NCBI GenBank assembly: GCA_963668625.2
Contig: CAXXKA010000005.1
Coordinates: 64,001-128,000 of the forward strand
Direction of reading: 5' to 3'
DNA from: an uncultured candidate division Zixibacteria bacterium
GTDB lineage: Bacteria > Zixibacteria > MSB-5A5 > UBA10806 > 4484-95
Length of the DNA stretch: 64,000 nucleotides
Shown here: in pieces, positions 1 through 63,815 of the stretch
How the letters are laid out: each line of letters starts with the position of its first letter
Numbering within the stretch: the first letter of the stretch is position 1
Position numbers and translations under genes: made by a program
The notes under the pieces: generated by a model
Database searches by the model: none
Told to the model about the DNA's origin: nothing
What the model saw: the letters and a program-made list of their open reading frames with translations, nothing else

Positions 1-162
1 GATTTCCCTGATACACTGGACGTTATTATCTCCGGCGATTCACCTTTATATTTCAAGGCCCGCTCTCATTACTGGTCGTATAGTGATTCAATATCCGCTA
101 CGCTTTACATAAAAGATGTACTTGAGTCAACGCATACCGTATACCTTTATAACAAAGGATGA
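1..162 (+). pseudogene. Internally deleted remnant of the toxin gene (middle region joined out of frame to the last codons of a toxin C-terminus); runs off the left edge
   Basis: 1-154 matches 5522-5675 (DFPDTLDV...VYLYN) with one mismatch. The sequence then jumps to AAGGATGAAAAGCCATGGGAAGATTA (KDEKPWED end, cf. 2020-2046 and 6836-6862) in another frame. Frame 1 stops at 160-162. Confidence 0.75.
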
Positions 163-168
163 AAAGCC

Positions 169-1215
169 ATGGGAAGATTAACTAATTTAGGATACGTTTT
201 TACTTTTTTATTATCGATGGTTTCAATCAATAGCACTGCCGCTGCCCAATATTACTATGTTAATGGATATTCTATGGCAGAGGATGGATTGACAAACAAT
301 GTTATCTACAAAATAAGTTTGGAAACAGTCGAGGTAATTGACAGCATAGTTTTTGATAGGCAGGGGGAATTTACTTCATCAACTCCCATATCTTTACAAA
401 GGCCGGGCAGTGACTTAAAATTATTAGTTTGGGTAGGATATGGATTGCCTGGTAAAAATTCAATTCCAGACAATCCGGTTTTATCATACTATTGGATTAT
501 TAATGAACGAAATTTTAAAATAGCTGGATCTGATAGTCTGCTGAATAATATTGTTTTAGGAATTAAACCTATCGGTATAGATTCAGTAGAATTTGACTGC
601 ATCGGTTTTTCACAGGATAAAGATGTTTTAAAAAAGTACACCTTCGATAGGGATAACAATAGTTTTAGGATGATTGAACAAACCCCATATAATGAAAGGG
701 AGATCAATGATGTAAGAATTGGAGACTACACTAATCCTTATTATTTGGCGTTAAATAACCAACGAAATTACTACTATGATTTTTCTAATGATCCTGATGA
801 GCTTATAGATATCTTTAGTACCCAAAATAATATTGATGTTTCAAAGCAAATAAATGCCGGCGATCTTTCGCAGGAGAGCGTGATTTTGGGATATTCTCCG
901 GAGTATGACAATATTTACTGTTTCAATTTTCGATTCAAGATACTGGCTATGTATCCGCATCCTGAATCACCGGATTCGATTTCAAATACTCTGAGGATTA
1001 TAAACGGCGAAACATTTGATGTAATCAATACTATTAACTTTGAACTTGGTGATATTTACTTGCCGCAAGAATTAGAAAACGCCGTCTACCAGGATGGATA
1101 TCTAATTCACTATTTCGCCAAAAGCGATGGCTATGGCCGTTATGACCCCGCTTATTTGTTAATTTTCGACACCCGCACCAACGAGGCCTCGTGGCTGCGT
1201 GTGGGATGGAGGTAA
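169..1215 (+). CDS. Secreted putative immunity protein, cassette 0 (type A)
   Basis: 348 aa with an N-terminal signal peptide (…STAAA-Q). Near-duplicate of 2034..3074. Ends in the shared IFDTRTNEASWLRVGWR. Start overlaps the PWED toxin end. Confidence 0.75.
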   Translation: MGRLTNLGYVFTFLLSMVSINSTAAAQYYYVNGYSMAEDGLTNNVIYKISLETVEVIDSIVFDRQGEFTSSTPISLQRPGSDLKLLVWVGYGLPGKNSIPDNPVLSYYWIINERNFKIAGSDSLLNNIVLGIKPIGIDSVEFDCIGFSQDKDVLKKYTFDRDNNSFRMIEQTPYNEREINDVRIGDYTNPYYLALNNQRNYYYDFSNDPDELIDIFSTQNNIDVSKQINAGDLSQESVILGYSPEYDNIYCFNFRFKILAMYPHPESPDSISNTLRIINGETFDVINTINFELGDIYLPQELENAVYQDGYLIHYFAKSDGYGRYDPAYLLIFDTRTNEASWLRVGWR

Positions 1216-1263
1216 AATTTGTTCGTGGCTGGCAAAAGTTTCCGCCTGCTGCTTAGAGACAGC
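1169..1263 (+). repeat. Array junction repeat copy 1 (50-bp core 1169-1218 plus REP-like hairpin)
   Basis: ACACCCGCACCAACGAGGCCTCGTGGCTGCGTGTGGGATGGAGGTAAAAT followed by TTGTTCGTGGCTGGCA(A/G)AAGTTTCCGCCTGCTGCTTAGAGACAGC. Confidence 0.95.
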
Positions 1264-2046
1264 AATGTTACATTCTGGAGAGATTCATTATATGCCGTTG
1301 GTGGATCTTTAACAGTTGCTTGCGAAGGGTATTTGACTCCTGTTGAAAACATCAATAATTGCTTTAATATTGATACTGATAGTACAATTAATGATACTAC
1401 TACTATTCCTACAAGATTGATATTGATAGATAGTGATCCTTCAAATCAGATGTTTCTTGACTCATTACAATATGACATCGTAAAAACAATTGCATATTAT
1501 GAATGGGCTGGAAGTAGTGATAGTAGGCATTGCGATGATCCATATAATTCTCAATATAACAACTATTGGGATAATGTTATAGATGAGGGAGATACTTGTA
1601 TAGAAACCAGATTTCCTTGCGAAAATCGCTATTCTACAGCAACTGGCACAATGCAAATGTTACGTGGTACCAGGGAAAAGCTTTTTAACGGCTCGTTTGT
1701 AGGAGGTGGAGACACAACGGGATTTATTGGTTGCTCCTGGGATTGCCTCGCATGGAATTGGAAAATTAATGTATTCAATGGAAAATGGGTATATATAACT
1801 GATATGTTCCACTATATTAATAAAGATACCAATCCCCAACGAAATTGGGACTCACTTTATACTCCAGCTAGTGATTATTCGCCTGACTCAACAAATAAAG
1901 AAGATATTGCTGTTTACGGTTACCATCTAGGCTCAACAAAGATGAAAGCAATTAGAACACAAAGCGATTGGAACGATAAAGTCGTAGAAGATGAATATGT
2001 CAATAACGTAAGAAGATATAAGGATGAAAAGCCATGGGAAGATTAA
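1219..2046 (+). CDS. Orphan lytic transglycosylase (SLT/lysozyme-like) toxin C-terminal cassette 1
   Basis: SLT-like motifs: TIAYYE (putative catalytic Glu), STATGTMQM (GLMQ-like), NVFNGKW, AVYGYHLG. TTG start is supplied by the repeat. No signal peptide. Confidence 0.7.
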   Translation: MFVAGKSFRLLLRDSNVTFWRDSLYAVGGSLTVACEGYLTPVENINNCFNIDTDSTINDTTTIPTRLILIDSDPSNQMFLDSLQYDIVKTIAYYEWAGSSDSRHCDDPYNSQYNNYWDNVIDEGDTCIETRFPCENRYSTATGTMQMLRGTREKLFNGSFVGGGDTTGFIGCSWDCLAWNWKINVFNGKWVYITDMFHYINKDTNPQRNWDSLYTPASDYSPDSTNKEDIAVYGYHLGSTKMKAIRTQSDWNDKVVEDEYVNNVRRYKDEKPWED

Positions 2047-3074
2047 CTAATTTAGGATACGTTTTTACTTTTTTATTATCGATGGTTTCAATCAATAGCA
2101 CTGCCGCTGCCCAATATTATTACGTTAATGGATATTCTATGGCAGAGGATGGATTGACAAACAATGTTATCTACAAAATAAGTTTGGAAACAGTCGAGGT
2201 AATTGACAGCATAGTTTTTGATAGGCAGGGGGAATTTACTTCATCAACTCCCATATCTTTACAAAGGCCGGGCAGTGACTTAAAATTATTAGTTTGGGTA
2301 GGATATGGATTGCCTGGTAAAAATTCAATTCCAGACAATCCGGTTTTATCATACTATTGGATTATTAATGAACGAAATTTTAAAATAGCTGGATCTGATA
2401 GTCTGCTGAATAATATTGTTTTAGGAATTAAACCTATCGGTATAGATTCAGTAGAATTTGACTGCATCGGTTTTTCACAGGATAAAGATGTTTTAAAAAA
2501 GTACACCTTCGATAGGGATAACAATAGTTTTAGGATGATTGAACAAACCCCATATAATGAAATTGAGATAAATAATGAAAGAATTGGAGACTACATTTTT
2601 CCTCACTACCTGGCGGAAAATAATCAGCGTAACTACTATTATGATTTTTTGCGTCATCCAAACATATATATATTTAGTACCCAAAATAATATTGATGTTT
2701 CAAAGCAAATAAATGCTGGCGATCTTTCACAGGAGAGTGTGATTTTGGGATATTCTCCGGAGTATGATAATATCTACTGTTTTAATTTTCGATACAAGAT
2801 ACTGGCAATGTATCCGCATCCCGAATCACCGGATTCGATTTCAAATACTCTGAGGATTATAAACGGCGAAACATTTGATGTAATCAATACTATTAATTTT
2901 GAACTGGGTGATATTTACTTGCCTAAAGAATACAATAAAGCTGATTATCAGGATGGATATCTAATTCACTATTTTGCCAAAAGCGATGGCTATGGCCGTT
3001 ATGACCCCGCTTATTTGTTAATTTTTAACACCCGCACCAACGAGGCCTCGTGGCTGCGTGTGGGATGGAGGTAA
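2034..3074 (+). CDS. Secreted putative immunity protein, cassette 1 (type A')
   Basis: 346 aa with signal peptide; 13-nt overlap with the upstream toxin stop; shared C-terminus. Confidence 0.75.
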   Translation: MGRLTNLGYVFTFLLSMVSINSTAAAQYYYVNGYSMAEDGLTNNVIYKISLETVEVIDSIVFDRQGEFTSSTPISLQRPGSDLKLLVWVGYGLPGKNSIPDNPVLSYYWIINERNFKIAGSDSLLNNIVLGIKPIGIDSVEFDCIGFSQDKDVLKKYTFDRDNNSFRMIEQTPYNEIEINNERIGDYIFPHYLAENNQRNYYYDFLRHPNIYIFSTQNNIDVSKQINAGDLSQESVILGYSPEYDNIYCFNFRYKILAMYPHPESPDSISNTLRIINGETFDVINTINFELGDIYLPKEYNKADYQDGYLIHYFAKSDGYGRYDPAYLLIFNTRTNEASWLRVGWR

Positions 3075-3122
3075 AATTTGTTCGTGGCTGGCAGAAGTTT
3101 CCGCCTGCTGCTTAGAGACAGC
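3028..3122 (+). repeat. Array junction repeat copy 2
   Basis: Identical 50-bp core plus REP-like hairpin. Confidence 0.95.
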
Positions 3123-3923
3123 GAGGTTACATTCTGGAGAGATTCATTGTATGCTGTAGGTGGTTCGTTAACTGTTGCGTGCCAGGGGTATTTATCCCCG
3201 GTTGAAAATATCAATAATTGCTTTCAAATAGATACTGACAGTACATTAAATGATTCTACTAAAATCCCAGATTTATTGATACTTATTGATCGAGATCCAC
3301 CAAACGCTTTATTCTCTGATAGTCTTGGTACAGATAGAAATAGGGCTATTGCATGGGCTGAAGCCGCAGGCACTTTGGATATAACTCATTGTCATAATCC
3401 ATATAATCCCTTATGGAATCATTACTGGGATACCAGAATAAGCGGGGCGGATACATGCTACGATACGCGTACTCCTTGTGAAAATGCTGGTGGCACCGAT
3501 ACTGGGATAATGCAGATATATAGAACTGTATGGGATACAGTATTTACCACACCAAGTAGCTTCCCACAATATCCCGCTGGCTTTACAATATGCAAACGGG
3601 ATAGTCTGGAATGGAATTGGATGATTTGTATACATAATGGACGGTGGATACTGGAAGATTGTATGCCTGCACGTATGAAAGCTTCTCAACAAGCTTGGCC
3701 TGAATCTTGTTCATATGCAGATTGTGATTCTGTTCCTGATATGCCTAACCAAGAAGACTTAGCTAATTATGGTTATCATGCAGGTGAAGGCAGAATGAGG
3801 ATTATTGATACTGAAAAACTATGGAAACAAAAGATATTTAAACCTAATAATCTTTTTGAAATCGATTGGGCAAATTATATTAAGAATGTAAGGAGGATAA
3901 AGTATAATGGAAATTTATGGTAA
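3078..3923 (+). CDS. Orphan lytic transglycosylase-like toxin cassette 2
   Basis: Motifs RAIAWAE, GTDTGIMQI, CIHNGRWIL, ANYGYHAG; Cys-rich; TTG start inside the repeat. Confidence 0.7.
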   Translation: MFVAGRSFRLLLRDSEVTFWRDSLYAVGGSLTVACQGYLSPVENINNCFQIDTDSTLNDSTKIPDLLILIDRDPPNALFSDSLGTDRNRAIAWAEAAGTLDITHCHNPYNPLWNHYWDTRISGADTCYDTRTPCENAGGTDTGIMQIYRTVWDTVFTTPSSFPQYPAGFTICKRDSLEWNWMICIHNGRWILEDCMPARMKASQQAWPESCSYADCDSVPDMPNQEDLANYGYHAGEGRMRIIDTEKLWKQKIFKPNNLFEIDWANYIKNVRRIKYNGNLW

Positions 3924-4935
3924 AAACGCGATAGGCATTCTGTTAGCTGTGTCTATTTGCGCGAGCATTTGCTTTGCACAGCAATATGCAGTCAATACCT
4001 ACGATGAAGACTCTCCCGGTTTTCCCAAAAGGATTAAAACAGTTTTTATAGACCTTGAAAATAAAAATATAATTGAAAGTGTTGTAATTGGTGAACAAGG
4101 TCAAATAATTAATAAAACACCATTAGTCATAAAAAAGCAATCTGATTCGTTGTTAATTACTGTAGTCATGGAAAGATGTTATTGCGATAATGCAACATTA
4201 GGGCAAACCAGAGCAAGAATTACCTTATTTGATTTTGAGTCCATAAGAATTTTAGATTCTTATGATGATACTAGCCTATTTATTACTTCTCTAGAACAAC
4301 TTGAAGGCGAGAGAATTTATATGTCCGGTTCGTTAATTTACGATCATAATAGAACAATTAAAGGCATATATACTCTTAACAATGTTTTTCATTTAAATTT
4401 GGAGGAATCGAGATCTCGGGATTATTCTTACAATCTATTAGATGGCATAAATAACTTTGATTTACTTGAGCTGGTTGATACGCGATTAAATTTATATAAG
4501 ACATCAAATGGTTCACAACGTTTTATTTTACGGATAAATAACTCCAGAGACCAGTTGTTAGATTCATTAGTTTTAGATAATGAACCTTACAGAAGCCAAG
4601 TTTTTGCCATAAAGGATACACTTATTTATGTATTCAATCAAAATTATGAAATTCATATGGAATTTACGACAAAAAATCGCGAAGATAATTGGATTGATAG
4701 TCATGTTAAGTTGTATGATTTAAGCGATTTCTCTTTAATTGATTCAATACCATTACCTGATTATCCTGAAAACGACTATATAGGCGGTGATTTTAATAAA
4801 GCTGATGTAGTCGGTGACTTTATCGTATATTACTTTTTTGGTAGAGAGGGCTTAACCCGTTATGCTCCAGCCATGCTATTCATTTTCGACACCCGCACCA
4901 ACGAGGCCTCGTGGCTGCGTGTGGGATGGAGGTAA
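3907..4935 (+). CDS. Secreted putative immunity protein, cassette 2 (type B)
   Basis: 342 aa with signal peptide (…ICFA-Q); overlaps the toxin stop by 17 nt; ends YAPAMLFIFDTRTNEASWLRVGWR. Confidence 0.75.
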   Translation: MEIYGKNAIGILLAVSICASICFAQQYAVNTYDEDSPGFPKRIKTVFIDLENKNIIESVVIGEQGQIINKTPLVIKKQSDSLLITVVMERCYCDNATLGQTRARITLFDFESIRILDSYDDTSLFITSLEQLEGERIYMSGSLIYDHNRTIKGIYTLNNVFHLNLEESRSRDYSYNLLDGINNFDLLELVDTRLNLYKTSNGSQRFILRINNSRDQLLDSLVLDNEPYRSQVFAIKDTLIYVFNQNYEIHMEFTTKNREDNWIDSHVKLYDLSDFSLIDSIPLPDYPENDYIGGDFNKADVVGDFIVYYFFGREGLTRYAPAMLFIFDTRTNEASWLRVGWR

Positions 4936-4983
4936 AATTTGTTCGTGGCTGGCAGAAGTTTCCGCCTGCTGCTTAGAGACAGC
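4889..4983 (+). repeat. Array junction repeat copy 3
   Basis: Identical core plus hairpin; diverges from copies 2 and 4 after GAGGTTA at 4990. Confidence 0.95.
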
Positions 4984-5064
4984 GAGGTTAAATGGCGTAG
5001 TAAAGGGGCAGATGAGGTTATTTACCATCTTAGAACAATAATTTTAATAATATTACATAATTGC

Positions 5065-5094
5065 TTGACAAAATAGAATACCCTAGCGCATATT
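5065..5094 (+). promoter_or_regulatory. Possible sigma70 promoter inside the array
   Basis: TTGACA at 5065-5070, 18-bp spacer, CATATT at 5089-5094; AT-rich upstream. Confidence 0.35.
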
Positions 5095-5443
5095 ACAGCA
5101 TATTGGAGCAGGCAGTTTAGGAGCAGGTTACTTTTACTTCCCCGGAGAACAAATACTTGTATGTGAAGAACAGCCGGTACTCTCGGAAAATTGCTGGCTT
5201 GAGGATGTATTATCTTGGCCGCCAAGGATTTTAATAACGAATGTCGATGTAGTATGGCCTGATGGTCGAGAGTATGAACATACAAGTTTATACGGTTGCG
5301 GGTGTATAATAGGGGAAGACTACCAGGATACTGTACGTAAAATAAACGGACTTGGTTATATAAGGTTTATAAATAGTGGCTTTCCATATTTCTGGCCTGT
5401 TTGTGAAGGTTATATTATTTATGATACTTATGCATTTACCTGT

Positions 5444-6862
5444 ATGAGAACCCCATGCCAGGGCGGTGGAGGTGCATTTGAGCCAAAACAATCGATAGCT
5501 TTTACTGATTCATTATATAATGATTTCCCTGATACACTGGACGTTATTATCTCCGGCGATTCACCTTTATATTTCAAGGCCCGCTCTCATTACTGGTCGT
5601 ATAGTGATTCAATATCCGCTACGCTTTACATAAAAGATGTACTTGAGTCAACGCATACCGTGTACCTTTATAACAGCGGTGATTCATGTTTTTATGGCAG
5701 CTTTGAAAACAGTAAAGAGCTTGGATTGAAATCATTCGGTATGGCACATATCGACATCGATTCGGTACGATTAGAATTAGATCCTTTTGCCGTTACTTTC
5801 GATGAAGTTGGTGTTTGTCTGCCGAAGCTAATAACCTCAACCGATACCGTTATTATCAATCATTCTGATATGAAAGTAAGCGCGGATTTTATAGCCGGCC
5901 TGGAGATAATACATGATGTAACCGGGGATAGAGTAGAGCCTGCCGAGATTGTTGATAGTGTTGGGTACAGGTACAAAAGCAAATGGGTATCTAATACAAG
6001 TTATTCTAAAACAACTAAACATAAAATATTCTATCGCTCCTTTCCAGATGATACTACGAAGTCATTGTGGTGGGACGGTAACAGAGATAGTTGTAGTGTA
6101 ACTTTTTGTAGAGATTCATTGTATGCGGTTGGGGGTTCTCTATCAGTTGCTTGCGAAGGGTATTTGACTCCTGTTGAAAACATCAATAATTGCTTTAATA
6201 TTGATACTGATAGTACAATTAATGATACTACTACTATTCCTACAAGATTGATATTGATTGATAGTGATCCTTCGAATCAGATGTTTCTTGACTCATTACA
6301 ATATGACATTATTAAAGCTATTGCATGGCAGGAATATGCTGGCAGTAATGATGGAACTCATTGTACGCCTTATCATAATCGATATAATAATTATTGGGAT
6401 AGTAGAATTACTGAAAGTGATACATGTCTCGATACGAGATTCCCTTGCGAAAATCGCTTATCTACAGCCACAGGTATAATGCAAATGTTACGTAGTACTT
6501 GGGAGAACTTATTTAATTTAAGCGGCGTTTATACTGAGCCCGATAGTTTTTATGCATGTAAATGGGATAGTTTAGCTTGGAGTTGGAAGATAAATATATT
6601 TAATGGTAAATATATCCATCAAAAAAGCTGCTTTTATCATATGACCAGTGCACAAAAGGCATGGGATTCTTTATATACTCCAGCTTCTGATTATACACCT
6701 GATTCTACTAATAGAGAAGATTTAGCTACTTATGGTTATAAAGAAGGTAGCACGTTTATGAGAAAAATTAGAACTTTAAAAGACTGGAATACTAAAATTA
6801 AATCGTTTTTTTACGTAAATAACGTAAGAATGTATAAGGATGAAAAGCCATGGGAAGATTAG
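5444..6862 (+). CDS. Longer lytic transglycosylase-like toxin cassette 3 (probably 5'-truncated; frame open from 5087)
   Basis: C-terminal part has AIAWQE, STATGIMQM, NIFNGKY and ATYGYKEG. Extra N-terminal region present. The frame has no stop back to TAG at 5084-5086 and no ATG/GTG/TTG before 5444. Confidence 0.7.
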   Translation: MRTPCQGGGGAFEPKQSIAFTDSLYNDFPDTLDVIISGDSPLYFKARSHYWSYSDSISATLYIKDVLESTHTVYLYNSGDSCFYGSFENSKELGLKSFGMAHIDIDSVRLELDPFAVTFDEVGVCLPKLITSTDTVIINHSDMKVSADFIAGLEIIHDVTGDRVEPAEIVDSVGYRYKSKWVSNTSYSKTTKHKIFYRSFPDDTTKSLWWDGNRDSCSVTFCRDSLYAVGGSLSVACEGYLTPVENINNCFNIDTDSTINDTTTIPTRLILIDSDPSNQMFLDSLQYDIIKAIAWQEYAGSNDGTHCTPYHNRYNNYWDSRITESDTCLDTRFPCENRLSTATGIMQMLRSTWENLFNLSGVYTEPDSFYACKWDSLAWSWKINIFNGKYIHQKSCFYHMTSAQKAWDSLYTPASDYTPDSTNREDLATYGYKEGSTFMRKIRTLKDWNTKIKSFFYVNNVRMYKDEKPWED

Positions 6863-7878
6863 TTCAATTAACCTCATTAATTATGACTATAGCGGTCATT
6901 ACATCATTAGTGAATGCTCAAACGATATATCTTAACTCATATGCATTAGATGAGAGATCAATAAGCAATTTTATTTATAAAGTTAATATAGAAAGCCAAT
7001 CTATTGAGGATTCACTATTTTTACCAACCAATGGATCTTTCTGTATGAAAAAGCCAATTATAGTTGATTATAGTAACAGTAGTTATATTCTCTCATTTTG
7101 GGTAAATGGATTGTATGCTAAAAACTCGCAACTTGGAATACATACTACATCTCATTATTGCGCCGTTGATATGGAGACATTCGATATGGTTAATTGTGAT
7201 AGTCTTCTTGATGTAATGGTAGGTGATAAATACTCGTATGATAATGACACTTTGATTGTTGAATTATATGAAGAAAATACCGGTGTATGGGAAGAAAGTA
7301 AATTATTATTTGATAGGGATAACAGACTAATTGAGCAAAGTAGCCGAAATTTAACAAGACAAGATTTAGAATCTATTATGGTTGGTAATTATGTTGAACC
7401 TGATATAATTTTCTCACAGGATACTATTAGCTATTATTGGGGGTATGAGGATGTTGGTGAAAATTCATATGTTAATTTACTTGCGGTTATTGATAGTGAT
7501 ATTATTTTTGAAAAGAGAATTGCCGATAGAGTATCTGCAAATATCATTGTGGGATTTAATTCAGAAACAAATATGATATATGCATTTATTTTACCTTTTA
7601 AGCTTCTATCATATAATCCAATCGAACAATCGCCTGAAAATATAACACCTGAAATACTAGTAATTAGTCCGGATAATTTTGAAATAGTGCAAACTCTTAA
7701 TATTGATATGGGAGATATATATCTGGGTCGTGAAACTGGAAACTGTAGTTCATTCGATTCCTATTTATACTATTACTTCTTCCTCCAAGATGGTGTTGGC
7801 CGTTATGACCCCGCTTATTTGTTAATTTTTAACACCCGCACCAACGAGGCCTCGTGGCTGCGTGTGGGATGGAGGTAA
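6850..7878 (+). CDS. Secreted putative immunity protein, cassette 3 (type C)
   Basis: 342 aa with signal peptide (…LVNA-Q); 13-nt overlap with the toxin; ends GRYDPAYLLIFNTRTNEASWLRVGWR. Confidence 0.75.
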   Translation: MGRLVQLTSLIMTIAVITSLVNAQTIYLNSYALDERSISNFIYKVNIESQSIEDSLFLPTNGSFCMKKPIIVDYSNSSYILSFWVNGLYAKNSQLGIHTTSHYCAVDMETFDMVNCDSLLDVMVGDKYSYDNDTLIVELYEENTGVWEESKLLFDRDNRLIEQSSRNLTRQDLESIMVGNYVEPDIIFSQDTISYYWGYEDVGENSYVNLLAVIDSDIIFEKRIADRVSANIIVGFNSETNMIYAFILPFKLLSYNPIEQSPENITPEILVISPDNFEIVQTLNIDMGDIYLGRETGNCSSFDSYLYYYFFLQDGVGRYDPAYLLIFNTRTNEASWLRVGWR

Positions 7879-7926
7879 AATTTGTTCGTGGCTGGCAGAA
7901 GTTTCCGCCTGCTGCTTAGAGACAGC
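7832..7926 (+). repeat. Array junction repeat copy 4
   Basis: Identical core plus hairpin; lies within a 465-bp tract (7797-8261) that reads identical to 2993-3457. Confidence 0.95.
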
Positions 7927-8742
7927 GAGGTTACATTCTGGAGAGATTCATTGTATGCTGTAGGTGGTTCGTTAACTGTTGCGTGCCAGGGGTATTTATC
8001 CCCGGTTGAAAATATCAATAATTGCTTTCAAATAGATACTGACAGTACATTAAATGATTCTACTAAAATCCCAGATTTATTGATACTTATTGATCGAGAT
8101 CCACCAAACGCTTTATTCTCTGATAGTCTTGGTACAGATAGAAATAGGGCTATTGCATGGGCTGAAGCCGCAGGCACTTTGGATATAACTCATTGTCATA
8201 ATCCATATAATCCCTTATGGAATCATTACTGGGATACCAGAATAAGCGGGGCGGATACATGTTCTGATACTCATATGCCATGTGAAAATGCGATTGGTGT
8301 TGATACTGGTGTTATGCAAATATATAGACAATGGAAACCACAGAGTTCTACAGATACAAGTGGTTGGGCATTACATTTTGCTAGATCAAATAGTAAACCT
8401 AGTGGGTATATACAAGTAATGTGGGATAGCCTTGCTTGGAATTGGGCTATATGCATTTATAATGGCAAATACATTCACGATGTATATATGCCATCAAGAT
8501 TTACTTCTGCGCAAAAACTTTTTCCAGATTCATGCTCTTACGCTAACTGCGACACTTTTCCGTTAAATGCTAATAAAGAAGACTTAAAAAGCTATGGATA
8601 TCATAGAGGTGACCCTGAGATGAAATCAATCACAACTATTAATTGGAATGAAATGGTTGCTGATACTACTGATCCTATTAGCGATGGAGCACAATATGTA
8701 CAAAGAGTTAGATTGTTCAAATATACAAAACCATGGGAGTAA
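7882..8742 (+). CDS. Orphan lytic transglycosylase-like toxin cassette 4
   Basis: Motifs RAIAWAE, GVDTGVMQI, CIYNGKYI, KSYGYHRG; first ~127 aa identical to cassette 2, then divergent. Confidence 0.7.
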   Translation: MFVAGRSFRLLLRDSEVTFWRDSLYAVGGSLTVACQGYLSPVENINNCFQIDTDSTLNDSTKIPDLLILIDRDPPNALFSDSLGTDRNRAIAWAEAAGTLDITHCHNPYNPLWNHYWDTRISGADTCSDTHMPCENAIGVDTGVMQIYRQWKPQSSTDTSGWALHFARSNSKPSGYIQVMWDSLAWNWAICIYNGKYIHDVYMPSRFTSAQKLFPDSCSYANCDTFPLNANKEDLKSYGYHRGDPEMKSITTINWNEMVADTTDPISDGAQYVQRVRLFKYTKPWE

Positions 8743-9800
8743 AAATGAATTGTAGATTAAGATTCATTGGATTAGTTTGTTGGATAATATTATTACACTC
8801 ATTAGCTTTGTCGGAAGCATATGTTGTGCATTCATATACAAGCAACAATCCTACTTCTTACAATGTATCAGTAAGCCTAATTAATCTTAATACACTGGAA
8901 ATAATCGACAATATTGAATTACCTATGACTGGCACAATAATGAACAAAAAGCCAATAGTGGTACTTGTGGATGACCAGGAATTGTTTTTATGTTTTACCC
9001 TTAATGGATGTATGGGGAAAAACGCAGATTTATCAGGTAACGGAGAAGTGTTGTATTATTCCGTGTATACAATTCGTGATAATTCTATACAGCTATTGCA
9101 TACCGATAGCTTGAGTGCCGTTATCGTTGATTACGTAGAGCAACTTCAGGGAGAGTCAGGTTTCAGATTGTCAATAAGGGATGCCCTGCGTGATAATTAT
9201 CTATTTGATCCGGGTTTATACTCAATCGATAATAATTTTGATTTTAGTCCAATCAGTCCAATTGAAAATGACAATGAAATGCCAGGTTACATTGAGCAGA
9301 TTGATGAATTCGAAAACTTGAATATTATTCGAAATGCAGAAGCAGATCATCTTTATTATTCATTTCATAATTCTCAATACTGGCTTTTAAAACTTGATAC
9401 TCGGGATAATTCAATAGTTGATTCTCTTCAACTAAGATATTCTGGCGGTCAAGCGACTATTTTTGGTTATCATCCATTGAGAGATAAGTTTTATTGTTTT
9501 CACACTAACTATGAGATCCATGGGAAATTCGTGGAGAAAAGCAGAGAGAACTATTATATCACGCCTGATGTCCAAATATATAATCCTTTAACATTGGAGT
9601 TGATGGAAAGCTTTGGAATACCGGACTATCCCGAGGGCAATTACCCCGGAAAAGAAAACGGCGCTTTCGATACGGTCGGTGATTATATAATTTATTATTT
9701 TTTTGAGGATGACTGGTTTCCAGTATATGCTCCAGCTATGCTATTCATTTTTAACACCCGCACCAACGAGGCCTCGTGGCTGCGTGTGGGATGGAGGTAA
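8733..9800 (+). CDS. Secreted putative immunity protein, cassette 4 (type D)
   Basis: 355 aa with signal peptide; overlaps the toxin PWE end by 10 nt; ends YAPAMLFIFNTRTNEASWLRVGWR. Confidence 0.75.
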   Translation: MGVKMNCRLRFIGLVCWIILLHSLALSEAYVVHSYTSNNPTSYNVSVSLINLNTLEIIDNIELPMTGTIMNKKPIVVLVDDQELFLCFTLNGCMGKNADLSGNGEVLYYSVYTIRDNSIQLLHTDSLSAVIVDYVEQLQGESGFRLSIRDALRDNYLFDPGLYSIDNNFDFSPISPIENDNEMPGYIEQIDEFENLNIIRNAEADHLYYSFHNSQYWLLKLDTRDNSIVDSLQLRYSGGQATIFGYHPLRDKFYCFHTNYEIHGKFVEKSRENYYITPDVQIYNPLTLELMESFGIPDYPEGNYPGKENGAFDTVGDYIIYYFFEDDWFPVYAPAMLFIFNTRTNEASWLRVGWR

Positions 9801-9803
9801 AAT
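9754..9803 (+). repeat. Array junction repeat copy 5 (core only)
   Basis: Identical 50-bp core, followed by C-ATG of the next gene instead of the REP hairpin. Confidence 0.95.
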
Positions 9804-9804
9804 C

Positions 9805-11286
9805 ATGTATAAGTATATAGCTTTACTACTCATTACATTAACTTTCAGATTTGCCTTTGGCGAACCGCAAGTTAGTACAACAACTTTTTTGAATTCCACT
9901 GAACCAACTAAGATGTGTCAGGATTACATTGATAAAGAATATGGCGCCTTGTCAAGAGCTATGCTTAAGCCTACTGGCGGCGCGCTTATCAGAGTTAATA
10001 TGTTGACCAGCACATATTGCAAGTTTATTTTTTGTGATGAACCGGCAAACCGTTTATATATTTTCCATCTTCTGGATACATCACCTGTAAGAACGCCCGT
10101 CAGAATGTCTACGTATGGCTTACAGAAAGATCCCGTATGGTTCAGTATAACTCACGAGGACTCATTAATACCTGATACGATAACAGCTCCATCCATGGAT
10201 AGGGATAGTATTGGCTATTTCTGGAGTCCCGTTGATATCGCAGTTTCCTCATGCGGAAATACCTATTACACGAATCATGATTATATATATGTTGTTGATA
10301 GCGGAAACCGCAGAATTGTCAAACTTCGCTACGATATAATGACTGATTCAATCCTCTGGATCGGTAGTTTTGGAGATGATATTCTAATTGATCCAACCGC
10401 GATCGACTATGCCGATTACAATGATGCTGATACGACTAATGATGATGTTTACGTAACGGATGGTTATCACGCTAAAATATTTCGGTTCTCCGCTACCGGT
10501 GAATACGAAACCTCATACGGCGGGCGAGGCACGAGCCTGGCGGAAATAGGTTATCCGACGGGAATTGCGGTTTCCACAGATACCCAATTGCCTGATAGAA
10601 TTTATATTACCGATTCGAAATACCATCGAGTCATCCGCTATTATTCCGGTACGAGCGGCCCGATAGTAGCTCAAAAACAATATAAATTCCCTCATTATCT
10701 ACCCGGTGATAATAAAGTGCCATATCTAAGCGCTATTGATACGGATGGCGCTGGTAATGTATATGTTTTAGATAGATTTGCGCACAAAATGTATATCCTA
10801 TCAGGCGACATAGAATCAAGAATTAAGGAATATGGAGAATATGGTTTCGGACTGATGCAGTTTAATCACCCATCGGATATTTATATTGATCATACACCGG
10901 TAAACGAGGAGATGGTCGTCTGCGAGATGTGGGATACCACTTCAGGTATTCAATCGTTCGATATTTCCTACAGTATATTTAAAGAAACGGACGAAATCCC
11001 GCTACCCAAAAAGTACAGTCTGTATCAAAATTACCCGAACCCATTCAACTCAGTCACACAAATAAAGTTTGATCTTCCTCGTCCAAGTAATGTTAAGCTG
11101 GAGATTTTTAATATTCTTGGTCAAAAAGTTAAAACTATAAAAAATGATGTAATGCCTGCGGGAAGTCATGCTATTGTTTGGAAAGGCGAAAATGACGCTG
11201 GTGATGAGATATCATCCGGTATGTATTTTTATAAGCTAAGCACATCTGATTATACCGAATCCCGAAAAATGTTATTGCTAAAATAA
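9805..11286 (+). CDS. Secreted NHL-repeat beta-propeller protein with C-terminal sorting-type (T9SS-A-like/FlgD Ig) domain
   Basis: ATG at 9805 follows GGAGG of the repeat; signal peptide MYKYIALLLITLTFRFAFG; NHL repeats (IYVVDSGNRRI, PTGIAV); CTD QNYPNPFN…SSGMYFYKL…KMLLLK. Confidence 0.85.
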   Translation: MYKYIALLLITLTFRFAFGEPQVSTTTFLNSTEPTKMCQDYIDKEYGALSRAMLKPTGGALIRVNMLTSTYCKFIFCDEPANRLYIFHLLDTSPVRTPVRMSTYGLQKDPVWFSITHEDSLIPDTITAPSMDRDSIGYFWSPVDIAVSSCGNTYYTNHDYIYVVDSGNRRIVKLRYDIMTDSILWIGSFGDDILIDPTAIDYADYNDADTTNDDVYVTDGYHAKIFRFSATGEYETSYGGRGTSLAEIGYPTGIAVSTDTQLPDRIYITDSKYHRVIRYYSGTSGPIVAQKQYKFPHYLPGDNKVPYLSAIDTDGAGNVYVLDRFAHKMYILSGDIESRIKEYGEYGFGLMQFNHPSDIYIDHTPVNEEMVVCEMWDTTSGIQSFDISYSIFKETDEIPLPKKYSLYQNYPNPFNSVTQIKFDLPRPSNVKLEIFNILGQKVKTIKNDVMPAGSHAIVWKGENDAGDEISSGMYFYKLSTSDYTESRKMLLLK

Positions 11287-11289
11287 AAA

Positions 11290-11311
11290 AAGGCGTTCAC
11301 CAGAACGCCTT
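11290..11311. terminator. Intrinsic terminator hairpin between convergent genes
   Basis: AAGGCGTTC-ACCA-GAACGCCTT preceded by an A-run. Confidence 0.7.
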
Positions 11312-11320
11312 CAAATCATC

Positions 11321-11345
11321 GTGGCCGGCAGACATCCCCGTCTGC
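11321..11345 (+). repeat. GTGG-foot REP-like palindrome
   Basis: GTGGCCGGCAGACATCCCCGTCTGC; related to 12390, 43931, 44159, 54471 and to the array hairpin. Confidence 0.6.
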
Positions 11346-11361
11346 GGCCGCAGCAAAAATC

Positions 11362-12210
11362 CTAATCTTTAAACATATGCTTGGCTATAAATATGACATT
11401 CTCACGTCGTTCCCGGAGCCGTCTGAGGAAATACGGCAGCCAGTGAGTGCCGAACGGGGTGTAGATACGCATGTTGTAGTCCTGGTCGGCAAGCTCGCGC
11501 TGGGCCGAGCGGTTCACGCCGTAGAGCATCTGGAATTCATATTCGGATTTGTCCTTGCCGTACTTCTCGGCTGTATCGAGCGCGGCCCGTATCATAGCGC
11601 CGTCATGAGTGGCGATAGCCGGGTAGTCGCCGTCTTTTAATAGCATGTCCGTTAGCTTGACATAGTTATTGTTGACATCATCCTTAGCCTGAAAAGCCAC
11701 GGTGGCAGGTTCGCGGTAAGCGCCTTTACACAGGCGGACACGTACGCCATGCTCGTTAAGCTTCTTGATGTCCTCCTCGGAACGATACAGGCTGGCCTGA
11801 ATGACAGTGCCCATCTTCTTGTATTTCTCATGCCATCTGTAGACGAGGTTTAGCGTCCTTTCGGTGTAGTCGGAGCCTTCCATATCGACGCGCACGAAAA
11901 TGCCCAGTTCGTTGGCTTTATCGAGAATGCGGCTGACATTGTCATAGCAAAAATCATCCGATATATCCATCCCCATCTGGGTGAGCTTGACCGAGACATG
12001 CGAATTAAGCGCATGGTCATGGATTACCTGAAGTAAATTTATATAAGCATCGGCAGTTCGTATCGCCATCTCCTGGTTTTTTACATTCTCGCCCAGAATA
12101 TCCAGTGATGTGCTCATGCCCATACCGTTAAGCTCCTTAACATACCTGATGGCTTCTTCGGGAGTCTCACCGGCAACGAATCTTTTAGCTAAAAACGTTA
12201 ATATTTTCAA
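11362..12210 (-). CDS. putB: Proline dehydrogenase (monofunctional)
   Basis: Motifs RFVAGE, SVKLTQMG, VRVDMEGS, VRLCKGAY, IATHD, EFQMLYG, YFLRRLRER; TTG at 12210 follows AGGAGG. Confidence 0.9.
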   Translation of the reverse strand: MKILTFLAKRFVAGETPEEAIRYVKELNGMGMSTSLDILGENVKNQEMAIRTADAYINLLQVIHDHALNSHVSVKLTQMGMDISDDFCYDNVSRILDKANELGIFVRVDMEGSDYTERTLNLVYRWHEKYKKMGTVIQASLYRSEEDIKKLNEHGVRVRLCKGAYREPATVAFQAKDDVNNNYVKLTDMLLKDGDYPAIATHDGAMIRAALDTAEKYGKDKSEYEFQMLYGVNRSAQRELADQDYNMRIYTPFGTHWLPYFLRRLRERRENVIFIAKHMFKD

Positions 12211-63036: not shown

Positions 63037-63815
63037 CCGGCAAGGGCGATGGCGATATGTTCGAGGCGGTGGCGGCGTTGCGCTCTCCCGGTATAGCTAT
63101 GCAGCTTTTGGATAAAATTGACAGCCCCGAAAAAGCCGTACGCGCCCGGGTAATAAAAGCGCTGGTTGCGATGGGTAAAGATATCGGGCCGGATGTCGTC
63201 TCCCGTTTGGGCTCCATAGTCGGCCAGGGTGAAACCGATGATGATAGAAGCTGGTATAAACTTCGCAACCTGATGAGGGTGCTTGGCCAGATTCGCTATA
63301 TCGCCGCTTTGCCTTATTATGAGGTAATGGCGGGCTGGAACCAGAAACGATTGAAGTACGAGATTATCACCTCCTGCGAGGCCATGCAGTCGGCCTCGGC
63401 CGGTGTGGTGCTTTCCAAACTTGCGCTCGATAAGGATCAGGAGATTCGCAAAGGAGCGGCTATCGCGATGGGCAACACCGGCCATCCCGATATGATCAAA
63501 TTCCTGCGTACGCTGTTTGATGATCCGCGCTCGGAGAAGATAATCCTGGTAGAGGCGTTGGGTAGGATAAGAGGTCCGCAGGCCAGAGACAGGTTAATCG
63601 ATTTGTATGAGGATACAACGATTTACGACAATCATGGGATTTCCTCTAAAGAGCGGGAACAGATCAAAATTTCTATATTAAAAGCATTATCTAAAATCGG
63701 GGATGATATCTCTCGCAGTAAAATAGAATTGTATGGCTCTAAGAAAAAGAGCGGATTCCTCAGGAAAGATAAGTTATCATCCACCGCCTCTGACCTTCTA
63801 AAGCAAATGGGCTGA
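63033..63815 (+). CDS. HEAT-repeat protein (C-terminal part)
   Basis: HEAT-like repeats (VRARVIKAL, IRKGAAIAMG, EALGRIRG); in-frame GTG at 63033 overlaps the upstream TGA. Confidence 0.65.
   Translation: MTGKGDGDMFEAVAALRSPGIAMQLLDKIDSPEKAVRARVIKALVAMGKDIGPDVVSRLGSIVGQGETDDDRSWYKLRNLMRVLGQIRYIAALPYYEVMAGWNQKRLKYEIITSCEAMQSASAGVVLSKLALDKDQEIRKGAAIAMGNTGHPDMIKFLRTLFDDPRSEKIILVEALGRIRGPQARDRLIDLYEDTTIYDNHGISSKEREQIKISILKALSKIGDDISRSKIELYGSKKKSGFLRKDKLSSTASDLLKQMG

What the first reader, a model, noticed from the sequence alone, without database searches (positions are those of the whole stretch)
1169..9803. Invariant GC-rich 50-bp repeat that is at once protein C-terminus, 34-nt palindrome and ribosome-binding site
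Seen: five copies (1169, 3028, 4889, 7832, 9754) are identical even at synonymous positions. They end genes that are otherwise very divergent and AT-rich. The core CACCCGCACCAACGAGGCCTCGTGGCTGCGTGTG folds into an imperfect hairpin: a perfect 12-bp palindrome ACGAGGCCTCGT plus outer arms CACCCGCA/TGCGTGTG, with two bulged bases. It is followed by GGAGG-TAA-AAT and a start codon (TTG in copies 1-4, C-ATG in copy 5). Inference: conservation acts at the DNA level. The repeat looks like an attachment or recombination site that is regenerated with each cassette gain. The last copy is the 'native' junction feeding the NHL gene. No recombinase is visible in the window.
Basis: partly seen in the sequence, partly recalled or inferred. 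Interest (0 to 1): 0.85.

Follow-up and report, generated by a model that had tools for sequence, protein, structure and literature searches.

The report
Gene-converted tail of tandem propeller genes
The five identical GC-rich repeats are the last 14 codons, stop codon and built-in ribosome-binding site of five old paralogous genes in a tandem array, kept identical in this one genome by copying between the paralogs rather than by a dedicated attachment site.

Summary
A 50-nt block is identical in five places and occurs nowhere else in the 4.3-Mb genome.

It is the 3' end of five paralogous 'A' genes. These encode signal-peptide beta-propeller proteins that end in TRTNEASWLRVGWR*. They alternate with 'B' genes that have a lytic-transglycosylase-like fold, and the array is followed by an NHL/T9SS gene. 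The last two codons, TGG AGG, form the GGAGG ribosome-binding site of the next gene.

The same array occurs in 11 of the 23 other genomes held for this order. There the peptide is invariant but the codons vary at nearly every third position, the 12-bp palindrome is mostly lost, and no base pair shows a compensatory change. Between orthologues, synonymous turnover in the tail equals that in the gene body.

The paralog types are older than the genomes, yet tails resemble each other within genomes. The identity is therefore concerted evolution: gene conversion or unequal crossover.

The attachment-site and cassette reading is not supported. No tyrosine or serine recombinase or Y1 transposase lies on the contig, and there are no attC cores.

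Three points remain open: a family-wide GC excess at tail third positions, orphan tail copies in two operon leaders, and a 50-nt direct repeat flanking the whole locus.

The parts
1169..1218 (+). Repeat copy 1: last 14 codons of A1, TAA stop, AAT. GGAGG lies at 1208-1212, 6 nt before the TTG start of B1.
3028..3129 (+). Repeat copy 2, extended form of 102 nt that is exact in copies 2, 3 and 4. It holds the A2 tail and stop plus the first 17 codons of B2.
4889..4990 (+). Repeat copy 3, extended form. After ...GAGGTTA it runs not into a B gene but into an AT-rich region with one promoter-like site at 5065-5094. The TTG at 4939 opens only a 45-codon ORF.
7832..7933 (+). Repeat copy 4, extended form: A4 tail and B4 head.
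9754..9803 (+). Repeat copy 5: A5 tail, with GGAGG 7 nt before the ATG of the NHL gene. It lacks the downstream extension.
169..1215 (+). A1, 348 aa, signal peptide plus beta-propeller family. No Pfam or NCBIfam match.
2034..3074 (+). A2, 346 aa, 95% identical to A1.
3907..4935 (+). A3, 342 aa. The AlphaFold2 model has pLDDT 87 and is all-beta, with propeller matches. The tail forms the strands at residues 321-328 and 333-341.
6850..7878 (+). A4, 342 aa.
8733..9800 (+). A5, 355 aa. It groups with G010 and G020 copies, not with the other G000 copies.
1219..2046 (+). B1, 275 aa, family with a lytic-transglycosylase-like fold. Its 3' end overlaps the start of A2.
3078..3923 (+). B2, 281 aa. Model residues 73-281 align to MltC (Z 9.4), LtgA (9.2) and MltF (9.0).
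5444..6862 (+). Long B, 472 aa counted from the first ATG. The frame is open further upstream without a common start codon. It carries an extra N-terminal region.
7882..8742 (+). B4, 286 aa.
2993..3457 (+). A 465-nt tract exactly identical to 7797-8261, running from the A tail into the first ~380 nt of B. B2 and B4 are only 70% identical overall. This is a mosaic, conversion-type tract.
9805..11286 (+). NHL-repeat protein with a T9SS C-terminal sorting domain. It is the conserved last gene of the operon.
11283..11332 (+). Right copy of a 50-nt direct repeat (43 nt exact, then 1 mismatch). It consists of a terminator-like hairpin plus a stretch ending GGCAGA. The left copy lies 614 nt before the window start. 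Together they flank the whole array plus NHL.
1..154 (+). Truncated copy of the long-B N-terminal region, 99% identical to 5522-5675, joined directly to the B-end/A-start overlap. This is an internal deletion.

Best explanation
The repeat is the 3' coding end of the 'A' genes. A proteins are periplasmic or secreted beta-propellers of a small family restricted to one order. One database member carries the source label Candidatus Zixiibacteriota.

The last 14 residues, TRTNEAxWLRVGWR, belong to the final beta-hairpin and are invariant in the family. The last two codons, TGG AGG, double as the Shine-Dalgarno sequence of the next cistron (B or NHL), which starts 6-8 nt after it.

This peptide-constrained stretch is the only long run of near-identity among paralogs that are otherwise 20-40% identical. 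It is therefore where homologous recombination between array members can start. In this genome, repeated gene conversion or unequal crossover has made all five tails identical, along with about 52 nt downstream in four of them. The hairpin is a by-product of the Ser codon TCG that this genome fixed.

Shown: the identity, the peptide-level selection, the age of the paralogs, the within-genome homogenisation, the mosaic tracts and the position of the ribosome-binding site.

Inferred: that RecA-type recombination is the agent, that the tail closes the propeller, and that the GC excess at third positions comes from GC-biased conversion or from selection on the mRNA of the junction.
For: 1. The 50-nt block is identical in 5 of 5 copies and is confined to this locus.
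2. A degenerate 42-nt pattern finds the homologous tail in 11 of 24 genomes of the order, 25 copies in all, with 0 control matches. The A-family profile matches 12 of 61 relatives, all in the two families of the order.
3. In 19 distinct copies the variable columns are 3, 6, 9, 12, 15, 18, 27, 30, 33 and 36, plus the synonymous first positions 25 and 28, plus the one free residue. AGG is kept in 18 of 19 copies.
4. For the G010/G020 orthologue pair, codons differ at 112 of 231 conserved degenerate positions in the body and at 7 of 11 in the last 14 codons. For G000 A5 against its G010 orthologue the figures are 76 of 134 and 5 of 11.
5. In a tree of A bodies with the last 24 residues removed (22 rows), the five G000 copies need 4 changes, at least 3 of them forced by well-supported branches. 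They interleave with copies from G010, G019, G020 and G021.
6. Tail differences over 42 nt average 2.09 within genomes (22 pairs) and 5.88 between genomes (188 pairs). None of 10000 label shuffles was as low. Without G000 the within-genome mean is 3.83 (12 pairs). One row, G019 L024, was dropped because its C-terminus is extended.
7. Copies in one genome share the free residue: S in 5 of 5 G000 copies, T in 3 of 3 G021 copies, and Q...T in both G003:C1 copies.
8. Identity tracts are mosaic: 50-102 nt among divergent pairs and 465 nt between units 2 and 4.
9. GGAGG lies 6-8 nt before the next start codon in G000 and G010.
10. In the A3 model (pLDDT 87, pTM 0.85) the tail forms two strands in blocks of pLDDT 86-95.
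Against: 1. Third positions of the last 14 codons end in G or C in 214 of 252 cases over 21 genes, against 0.18-0.40 in the gene bodies. Protein-level selection alone does not explain this. Some nucleotide-level force acts, either biased conversion or selection on the junction mRNA.
2. In G016 and G018 the last 13-14 codons stand alone in the operon leader, at the same upstream junction in two genera. They differ from each other at only 4 of 41 nt, and G018 has no A gene left to convert from.
3. The consensus outer stem can pair in 88% of cells, so a weak structural role is not excluded.
4. No recombination intermediate was seen. The only runs available are short-read contigs of one sample, and these break at the repeats.
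Confidence: 0.8

Rival explanations
1. The block is primarily a cis-acting RNA or translation-initiation module for the downstream cistron: a GC-rich leader with the SD, possibly a hairpin or standby site. The peptide would then be constrained secondarily. Its identity in G000 would reflect selection on the RNA.
For: GGAGG sits inside the last codons 6-8 nt before the next start. Orphan copies without an A gene sit in the 5' leader, after a promoter-like site (TTGCCA, 17 nt, TAAAAT), in front of B in G016 and NHL in G018. G/C ends 85% of tail third positions against about 31% in the bodies. A 10-bp outer stem can pair in 88% of cells.
Against: No pair shows a change on both sides, and the paired fraction equals the shuffles: 77.2 against 77.7% and 88.4 against 88.7%. 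Variation follows codon periodicity. Synonymous turnover is as high as in the gene body. Folding energy is not exceptional, with z between -0.5 and -1.7. No Rfam family matches. In G016 the orphan can be read as a 23-codon GTG ORF, and in G018 it is frame-shifted, so even the orphans are not uniform.
Confidence: 0.1
2. The block is a site-specific recombination or attachment site of the attC or att type. It would be used by a recombinase encoded elsewhere to gain, lose or shuffle B-A cassettes.
For: The block is a co-oriented repeat at the 3' end of every unit. An orphan copy lies at the head of the array in G016, and there is an 'empty' arrangement of promoter, orphan and NHL in G018. Unit number varies from 0 to 5 between genomes. 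The G000 array plus NHL is flanked by a 50-nt direct repeat and is absent from the syntenic site of G002.
Against: None of the PF00589 matches (12), PF00239 matches (2) or PF01797 matches (8) in the genome lies on contig C5. The attC core motifs as I recall them (RYYYAAC and GTTRRRY) fit at best one end of one of the five copies (reading). The hairpin is not kept in relatives. The units are paralogs that co-diverged with the NHL gene across two families. Identity tracts have variable ends, 50 to 465 nt, which fits homologous rather than site-specific exchange. The flanking direct repeat is a different sequence from the block.
Confidence: 0.04
3. The five tails are identical simply because the five units arose by very recent duplication, with no conversion.
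For: A1 and A2 are 95% identical, and parts of units 2 and 4 are identical, so recent duplication does occur in the array.
Against: A3, A4 and A5 share 18-37% protein identity with A1 and with each other. They group with different orthologues in other genomes. Upstream of the block, identity falls to 5-20 of 30 nt within 60 nt.
Confidence: 0.02

Closest known systems
Interlocus gene conversion, or concerted evolution, between tandem bacterial paralogs. Examples recalled from memory or named in earlier notes of this scan: Brucella omp2a/omp2b, Helicobacter babA/babB, Neisseria pilE/pilS.
   Same: Old paralogs carry short tracts that are identical within a genome but differ between orthologues. 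Tract ends are mosaic, and no dedicated recombinase is involved.
   Different: The tract common to all copies is very short (50 nt). It is shared by five genes and coincides exactly with an invariant 14-residue peptide plus the next gene's ribosome-binding site. Its third positions are GC-rich across the whole family.
Integron gene cassettes and attC sites
   Same: There is a co-oriented array, an imperfect palindrome at the 3' end of each unit, and a promoter at the head of the array.
   Different: No integrase lies on the contig. The core motifs do not fit. The site is coding. The structure is not conserved. The units are paralogous pairs rather than unrelated promoterless genes.
rAID-1 arrays of Bacteroidales (bioRxiv 10.1101/471110; I read passages found by term search)
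   Same: Both are large co-oriented arrays with repetitive junction sequences and skewed GC. The paper describes the junction sequences as reminiscent of integrons.
   Different: rAID-1 has a conserved XerD-family recombinase and diverse orphan immunity genes. Here no recombinase is present, the repeat lies inside the coding sequence, and all units belong to two families.
Translationally coupled operon junctions, with the Shine-Dalgarno sequence inside the 3' end of the upstream ORF (established knowledge)
   Same: GGAGG is formed by the last two sense codons. The stop codon and the next start are 3-10 nt apart. The B-to-A junctions overlap.
   Different: None in principle. This part is an ordinary member of the class.
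GC-biased gene conversion in bacteria (Lassalle et al. 2015, PMC4450053; I saw only the search listing and the start of the abstract)
   Same: GC3 is locally raised exactly where recombination between copies is inferred.
   Different: Here the setting is an intragenomic paralog tract of about 40-100 nt. The link is inferred, not tested.

Membership tests
Interlocus gene conversion / concerted evolution | The paralogs are older than the split of the genomes compared. | tested here: met
   In the tree of A bodies, the G000 copies need 4 changes, at least 3 of them forced by supported branches.
Interlocus gene conversion / concerted evolution | The tract is more alike within a genome than between orthologues. 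| tested here: met
   Mean differences are 2.09 within and 5.88 between genomes, with 0 of 10000 shuffles as low. G000 A5 differs from its orthologues at 4-7 of 42 nt but from its G000 paralogs at 0.
Interlocus gene conversion / concerted evolution | Tracts are mosaic, with variable end points. | tested here: met
   Exact tracts of 50, 57, 66, 73, 102 and 465 nt, depending on the pair.
Integron attC site | An integron integrase (tyrosine recombinase) lies next to the array. | tested here: not met
   There are 12 PF00589 matches in the genome, none on contig C5.
Integron attC site | Inverse core and core sites (RYYYAAC ... GTTRRRY; consensus recalled from memory) at the two ends. | tested here: not met
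   From reading: the left candidates are TTTTAAC or TTTCGAC. The right candidate is GTTACAT in copies 1, 2 and 4 and GTTAAAT in copy 3, and there is none in copy 5.
Integron attC site | The secondary structure is conserved while the sequence varies. | tested here: not met
   0 compensatory pairs. The inner stem pairs in 2-4 of 19 copies at two of its three positions.
Integron attC site | Cassettes carry unrelated genes. | tested here: not met
   All units are A and B paralogs.
REP element / RAYT system | Many intergenic palindromic copies genome-wide, together with a Y1 (HUH) transposase. | tested here: not met
   There are only 5 copies, all at coding ends. The Y1_Tnp matches lie on C1, C4 and C8, not C5.
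Known RNA family (Rfam 15) | A covariance-model match at the repeat. | tested here: not met
   No match at E <= 1 on any copy within 1-12000.
Translationally coupled junction | An SD inside the upstream ORF's end, with the next start a few nt after the stop. | tested here: met
   GGAGG lies 6-8 nt before TTG, GTG or ATG in G000 and G010. Expression itself was not tested.
Beta-propeller fold (protein A) | An all-beta model with propeller matches. | tested here: met
   pLDDT 87. Foldseek probability is 1.00 for methylamine dehydrogenase heavy chain, kelch domains, designed propellers and Bacteroides lipoproteins, with TM only 0.3-0.48.
GH23-type lytic transglycosylase / g-type lysozyme fold (protein B) | The catalytic-domain fold and a catalytic Glu. 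| tested here: inconclusive
   VIA Z is 9.4, 9.2, 9.0 and 8.5 to MltC, LtgA, MltF and MltE over residues 73-281. Profile search against PDB hits only transglycosylases, but at E about 0.4. Foldseek E is above 1. Model pLDDT is 66. There is an invariant P-C-E and G-x-M-Q, and my motif assignment is recalled.
rAID-1 | A conserved XerD-family recombinase at the head of the array. | tested here: not met
   The upstream gene is GapS1-like.

The most novel reading that the evidence does not exclude
The invariant tail plus SD is a portable junction module that makes the operon a recombinase-free cassette array. Each unit would be a lytic-transglycosylase-like gene with its signal-peptide propeller partner, possibly an enzyme-inhibitor or effector-immunity pair. 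Every unit ends in the same homology block, and an orphan block sits in the leader. General recombination could therefore add, delete or reshuffle whole units without breaking a gene or its translation signal. GC-biased conversion would keep the block GC-rich and hence recombinogenic. The copy numbers of 0 to 5, the 'empty' G018 arrangement and the flanked 11.9-kb G000 locus would all be products of this mechanism.
Probability: 0.15. Interest if true: 0.6.

Novelty: new member of a known kind. Interest (0 to 1): 0.3.

Why it matters
This repeat looks like a mobile-element attachment site: GC-rich, palindromic, and found at the end of every unit of an array. It is in fact a peptide-constrained gene end homogenised by recombination. 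That is a useful caution when calling integron-like sites in metagenome-assembled genomes.

The work also defines two undescribed, co-inherited protein families: a beta-propeller with an invariant C-terminal hairpin, and a protein with a lytic-transglycosylase-like fold. They form copy-number-variable, translationally coupled pairs upstream of a T9SS-sorted NHL protein.

The family-wide GC excess at the tail's third positions is a small natural test case for GC-biased conversion against selection on junction mRNA.

Tried and rejected
- Rfam search of 1-12000 at E <= 1 gave nothing on the repeats. There was only a sub-threshold STnc430 match at 11163-11322.
- Pfam and NCBIfam gave no family for A or B.
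- Full-text search for the peptide motifs found 0 papers. A search combining Zixibacteria, type IX secretion and NHL repeat also found 0.
- Complex prediction on A3 (residues 25-342) with B2 gave no answer: score 0.00 in two runs and the controls were not run. This is neither evidence for nor against binding.
- Sequencing runs: 3 holders, all from one sample and one study, and no RNA holder was listed. Their contigs break inside or beside the repeats and show no joints, other letters or indels. The loose end at 11283 is the left-border copy of the flanking direct repeat, not a deletion variant.
- Foldseek on the B model gave no match at E <= 0.001.
- A T6SS sheath (PF05943) was not found in the own genome, which is 95.9% complete. 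A T6SS effector-immunity reading therefore has no support here.
- A-TAA-AAT-TTG-B is in one frame in G000, so I considered stop-codon read-through. I rejected it because the frames differ in G010.
- An ATG inside GGATGGAGG opens only a 16-codon ORF in G000, and it is lost wherever Gly is GGC, GGT or GGG.
- The ungapped comparison of G010 junctions lost register after the stop codon and was not used.
- Promoter-like sites in 1-11500 are not clearly enriched: 66 found against 51 +/- 6.7 expected. The internal promoter at 5065-5094 is therefore only a candidate.
- DNA search with 4880-5700 in five genomes of the same family matched only the tail-coding 50 nt.
- Earlier notes of this scan hold nothing on this genome's locus or on protein A.

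Full report
THE OBSERVATION

The 34-mer occurs five times without a mismatch, on the + strand at 1170, 3029, 4890, 7833 and 9755. None of 100 dinucleotide-preserving shuffles gave a match. The own genome has 4.30 Mb in 10 contigs, and the window is contig C5:64001-128000. It holds only these five copies at up to 3 mismatches.

The identity in fact goes further. Copies 2, 3 and 4 share 102 exact nt. Copy 1 shares 66-73 exact nt with them. Units 2 and 4 share 465 exact nt (2993-3457 = 7797-8261).

The 34-mer can fold at -13.5 kcal/mol, but 9 of 200 shuffles do as well (z = -1.68). The wider context folds no better than shuffles (z = -0.63 as RNA and -0.52 as DNA). No Rfam family matches.

WHAT THE LOCUS IS

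The region is a tandem array of two alternating gene families.

- 'A' genes (169-1215, 2034-3074, 3907-4935, 6850-7878, 8733-9800) encode proteins of about 345 residues with an N-terminal signal-like helix. All end in ...IF(D/N)TRTNEASWLRVGWR*.
- 'B' genes (1219-2046, 3078-3923, 7882-8742, and a longer form at 5444-6862) encode proteins of about 280 residues.
- The array ends in an NHL-repeat protein with a T9SS sorting domain (9805-11286).

Neither A nor B matches Pfam or NCBIfam. Both families are tiny. A collection of 5.8 billion proteins holds 26 proteins for A and 36 for B. All are unnamed or 'hypothetical', and in each family one carries the source label Candidatus Zixiibacteriota.

An AlphaFold2 model of A3 (pLDDT 87, pTM 0.85) is all-beta and matches beta-propellers. 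The tail forms the last two strands, at residues 321-328 and 333-341.

The B model is weaker (pLDDT 66). Its residues 73-281 align to lytic transglycosylases: MltC Z 9.4, LtgA 9.2, MltF 9.0 and MltE 8.5. A profile search of PDB sequences hits only transglycosylases, but weakly at E about 0.4. I call B 'lytic-transglycosylase-like' and regard family membership as unproven.

The junctions are tight in both directions. The last two sense codons of A, TGG AGG, form GGAGG 6-8 nt before the start codon of the next gene. The 3' end of each B overlaps the start of the next A.

COMPARISON WITH RELATIVES

A profile of nine A proteins finds the family in 12 of 61 related genomes. All 12 lie in the two families of the window's order, and none in the other 14 families of the class. 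A degenerate 42-nt pattern for the tail finds 25 copies in 11 of the 24 genomes held for the order, with no control hit.

The arrangement is conserved. G010 has (B)-A-B-A-B-A-B-A-NHL, G019 has A-B-A-NHL, G021 has A-A-longB-A-NHL, and G003 has longB-A'-B-A-NHL. The operon, including the junction from A tail to NHL, is therefore ancestral to the order, and the unit number varies.

In all these copies the peptide TRTNEAxWLRVGWR is kept, and only x varies (S, T, A, R or D).

The nucleotides are not kept. In an alignment of 19 distinct copies the variable columns are:
- the third codon positions (3, 6, 9, 12, 15, 18, 27, 30, 33, 36);
- two synonymous first positions (CTG/TTG and CGG/AGG);
- the codon of the free residue.

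The final Arg is AGG in 18 of 19 copies, as expected if it must supply the SD.

The 12-bp palindrome needs Ser = TCG and Asn = AAC. It is present in the five G000 copies and one G016 copy, 6 of 25 in all.

Both gave 0 pairs with a change on both sides. The paired fractions were 77.2% and 88.4%, equal to the column shuffles at 77.7% and 88.7%. The pairing potential therefore follows from the conserved codons, and changes are not compensated.

Between orthologues, synonymous change is as free in the tail as elsewhere. For G010 against G020, 112 of 231 conserved degenerate codons differ in the body and 7 of 11 in the last 14 codons. For G000 A5 against G010 the figures are 76 of 134 and 5 of 11.

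WHY THE FIVE COPIES ARE IDENTICAL HERE

In a maximum-likelihood tree of A proteins without their last 24 residues (22 rows; quick search, SH-aLRT support), the five G000 copies fall into at least three well-supported groups. These groups also hold copies from G010, G019, G020 and G021. The paralog types therefore predate the divergence of the two families.

Yet the tails cluster by genome. The mean difference over 42 nt is 2.09 within genomes and 5.88 between genomes, and 0 of 10000 label shuffles was as low. Without G000 the within-genome mean is 3.83. One row with an extended C-terminus was dropped. Related genomes are not independent, so the permutation figure is only indicative.

The free residue also tracks the genome: S in all five G000 copies, T in all three G021 copies, and an E-to-Q change in both G003:C1 copies. 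Together with the variable tract ends, this is the signature of interlocus gene conversion or unequal crossover.

The peptide-constrained tail is the only stretch where these 20-40%-identical paralogs retain enough identity for homologous exchange. That explains why homogenisation is centred there.

AGAINST A DEDICATED ATTACHMENT SITE

- None of the genome's 12 tyrosine-recombinase, 2 serine-recombinase or 8 Y1-transposase matches lies on the 252-kb contig C5.
- The attC core motifs, as I recall them, fit at best one end of one copy (reading).
- The units are paralogs, not unrelated cassettes.
- The only sequencing runs that hold the locus are short-read contigs of a single sample. They break at the repeats and show no joints, so they neither show nor exclude variants.

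WHAT REMAINS UNEXPLAINED

First, third positions of the last 14 codons end in G or C in 214 of 252 cases over 21 A genes, while the bodies have GC3 of 0.18-0.40. In G000, the 60-nt windows with GC >= 0.55 inside the array lie almost only at the junction blocks. Specific bases turn over, so the force acts on composition. I think GC-biased conversion is the most economical cause (PMC4450053; I saw only the search listing and the start of the abstract). Selection on the mRNA of the coupled junction is not excluded. The one copy with a GC-poor tail (G019, 5 of 12) is also the most divergent, which fits but is a single case.

Second, in G016 and G018 just the last 13-14 codons stand alone. They lie downstream of a conserved promoter-like site (TTGCCA, 17 nt, TAAAAT) and a DUF92-like membrane gene, directly before B (G016) or NHL (G018). 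The upstream junction is the same in both genera, so the orphan is old. In G016 it can be read as a 23-codon GTG ORF. In G018 it is frame-shifted, and the genome has no A gene. Exchange between such an orphan and the last tail would delete all units cleanly, which is what G018 looks like. This is why the 'cassette-like, but by homologous recombination' reading keeps some probability.

Third, the ~52-nt downstream extension of copies 1-4 does not occur in relatives. In G000 it also lies, without an A tail, 576 nt before the window start. There it is followed by the same AT-rich region and long-B N-terminus as after copy 3, at a spacing of exactly 5521 nt. Its first bases belong to a 50-nt direct repeat (43 nt exact, then 1 mismatch). 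That repeat consists of a terminator-like hairpin plus about 20 nt, and it flanks the whole array plus NHL at window -614 and 11283.

In the same-genus genome G002, the flanking GAF-domain gene and the convergent downstream gene are 117 bp apart. Neither the GapS1-like gene, the hairpin nor the array is there. G001 has a different T9SS-sorted gene at that site. The G000 locus therefore sits in a different context from that in family f2, and it may have entered by recombination at that repeat. I could not resolve the order of events.

VERDICT

The palindrome is incidental to one genome's codon choice. The attachment-site interpretation is not supported.

The best explanation is concerted evolution of a peptide-constrained, SD-bearing gene end in a tandem paralog array. 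That is a known process, seen here in two undescribed protein families.

Earlier notes of this scan describe similar gene-conversion tracts in other genomes. They are analogies, not evidence.

Noticed in passing
window 11283-11332, and G000:C5 about 63387-63436 (614 nt before the window start): A 50-nt direct repeat (43 nt exact, then 1 mismatch), made of a terminator-like hairpin plus about 20 nt, flanks the whole 11.9-kb array plus NHL gene. The syntenic site of same-genus G002 has only 117 bp between the flanking genes, and G001 has another T9SS-sorted gene there.
   Followed up: partly
L021 (G018) 1409-1548; L029/L043 (G016), same region on the minus strand: Orphan copies of just the last 13-14 codons plus SD lie in the operon leader, after a conserved promoter-like site and a DUF92-like gene. 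One lies before B (G016) and one before NHL (G018). G018 has no A gene at all.
   Followed up: partly
L006 15708-17345 (just upstream of the window): The gene next to the array's left border matches the GapS1 antiphage family (NF047931, E 5.8e-23, below the curated cut-off). It is missing at this site in G001 and G002.
   Followed up: partly
all A genes of 11 genomes (window tails at 1174-1215 etc.): Third codon positions of the last 14 codons end in G or C in 214 of 252 cases, against 18-40% in the gene bodies. The specific bases turn over.
   Followed up: partly
window 2993-3457 and 7797-8261: A 465-nt exact tract is shared by units 2 and 4, although B2 and B4 are only 70% identical overall. 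The two proteins have identical first ~125 residues and divergent remainders.
   Followed up: yes
window 1-189 and 5522-6870: The window starts inside a second, internally deleted copy of the long-B gene. Its N-terminal part is joined straight to the B-end/A-start overlap.
   Followed up: partly
window about 5100-5443: The frame of long B is open for about 115 codons upstream of its first ATG without any ATG, GTG or TTG. The true start, or the integrity of this gene, is unclear.
   Followed up: no
window 2020-2046, 3895-3923, 6838-6862, 8725-8742: B ends in one of two conserved C-termini (...YNGNLW* or ...KPWE(D)*). Each overlaps the ATG of the following A gene, giving a second conserved coupled junction.
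   Followed up: no
L039 (G003:C3) about 1501-1569 minus strand; G003:C4:41888-41929: Decayed tail remnants lie outside any array, for example ...IDTRNNESTWLNIGWR* about 135 nt upstream of a gatB-like gene.
   Followed up: partly
L016/L048 (G004:C1:301657-302706): The single A homologue of G004 has 3 in-frame stops (1 TAG, 2 TAA) and looks like a pseudogene.
   Followed up: no
window 11163-11322: A sub-threshold Rfam match to STnc430 (32.2 bits against a gathering score of 47, E 0.067) overlaps the terminator hairpin. It is probably a chance match.
   Followed up: no
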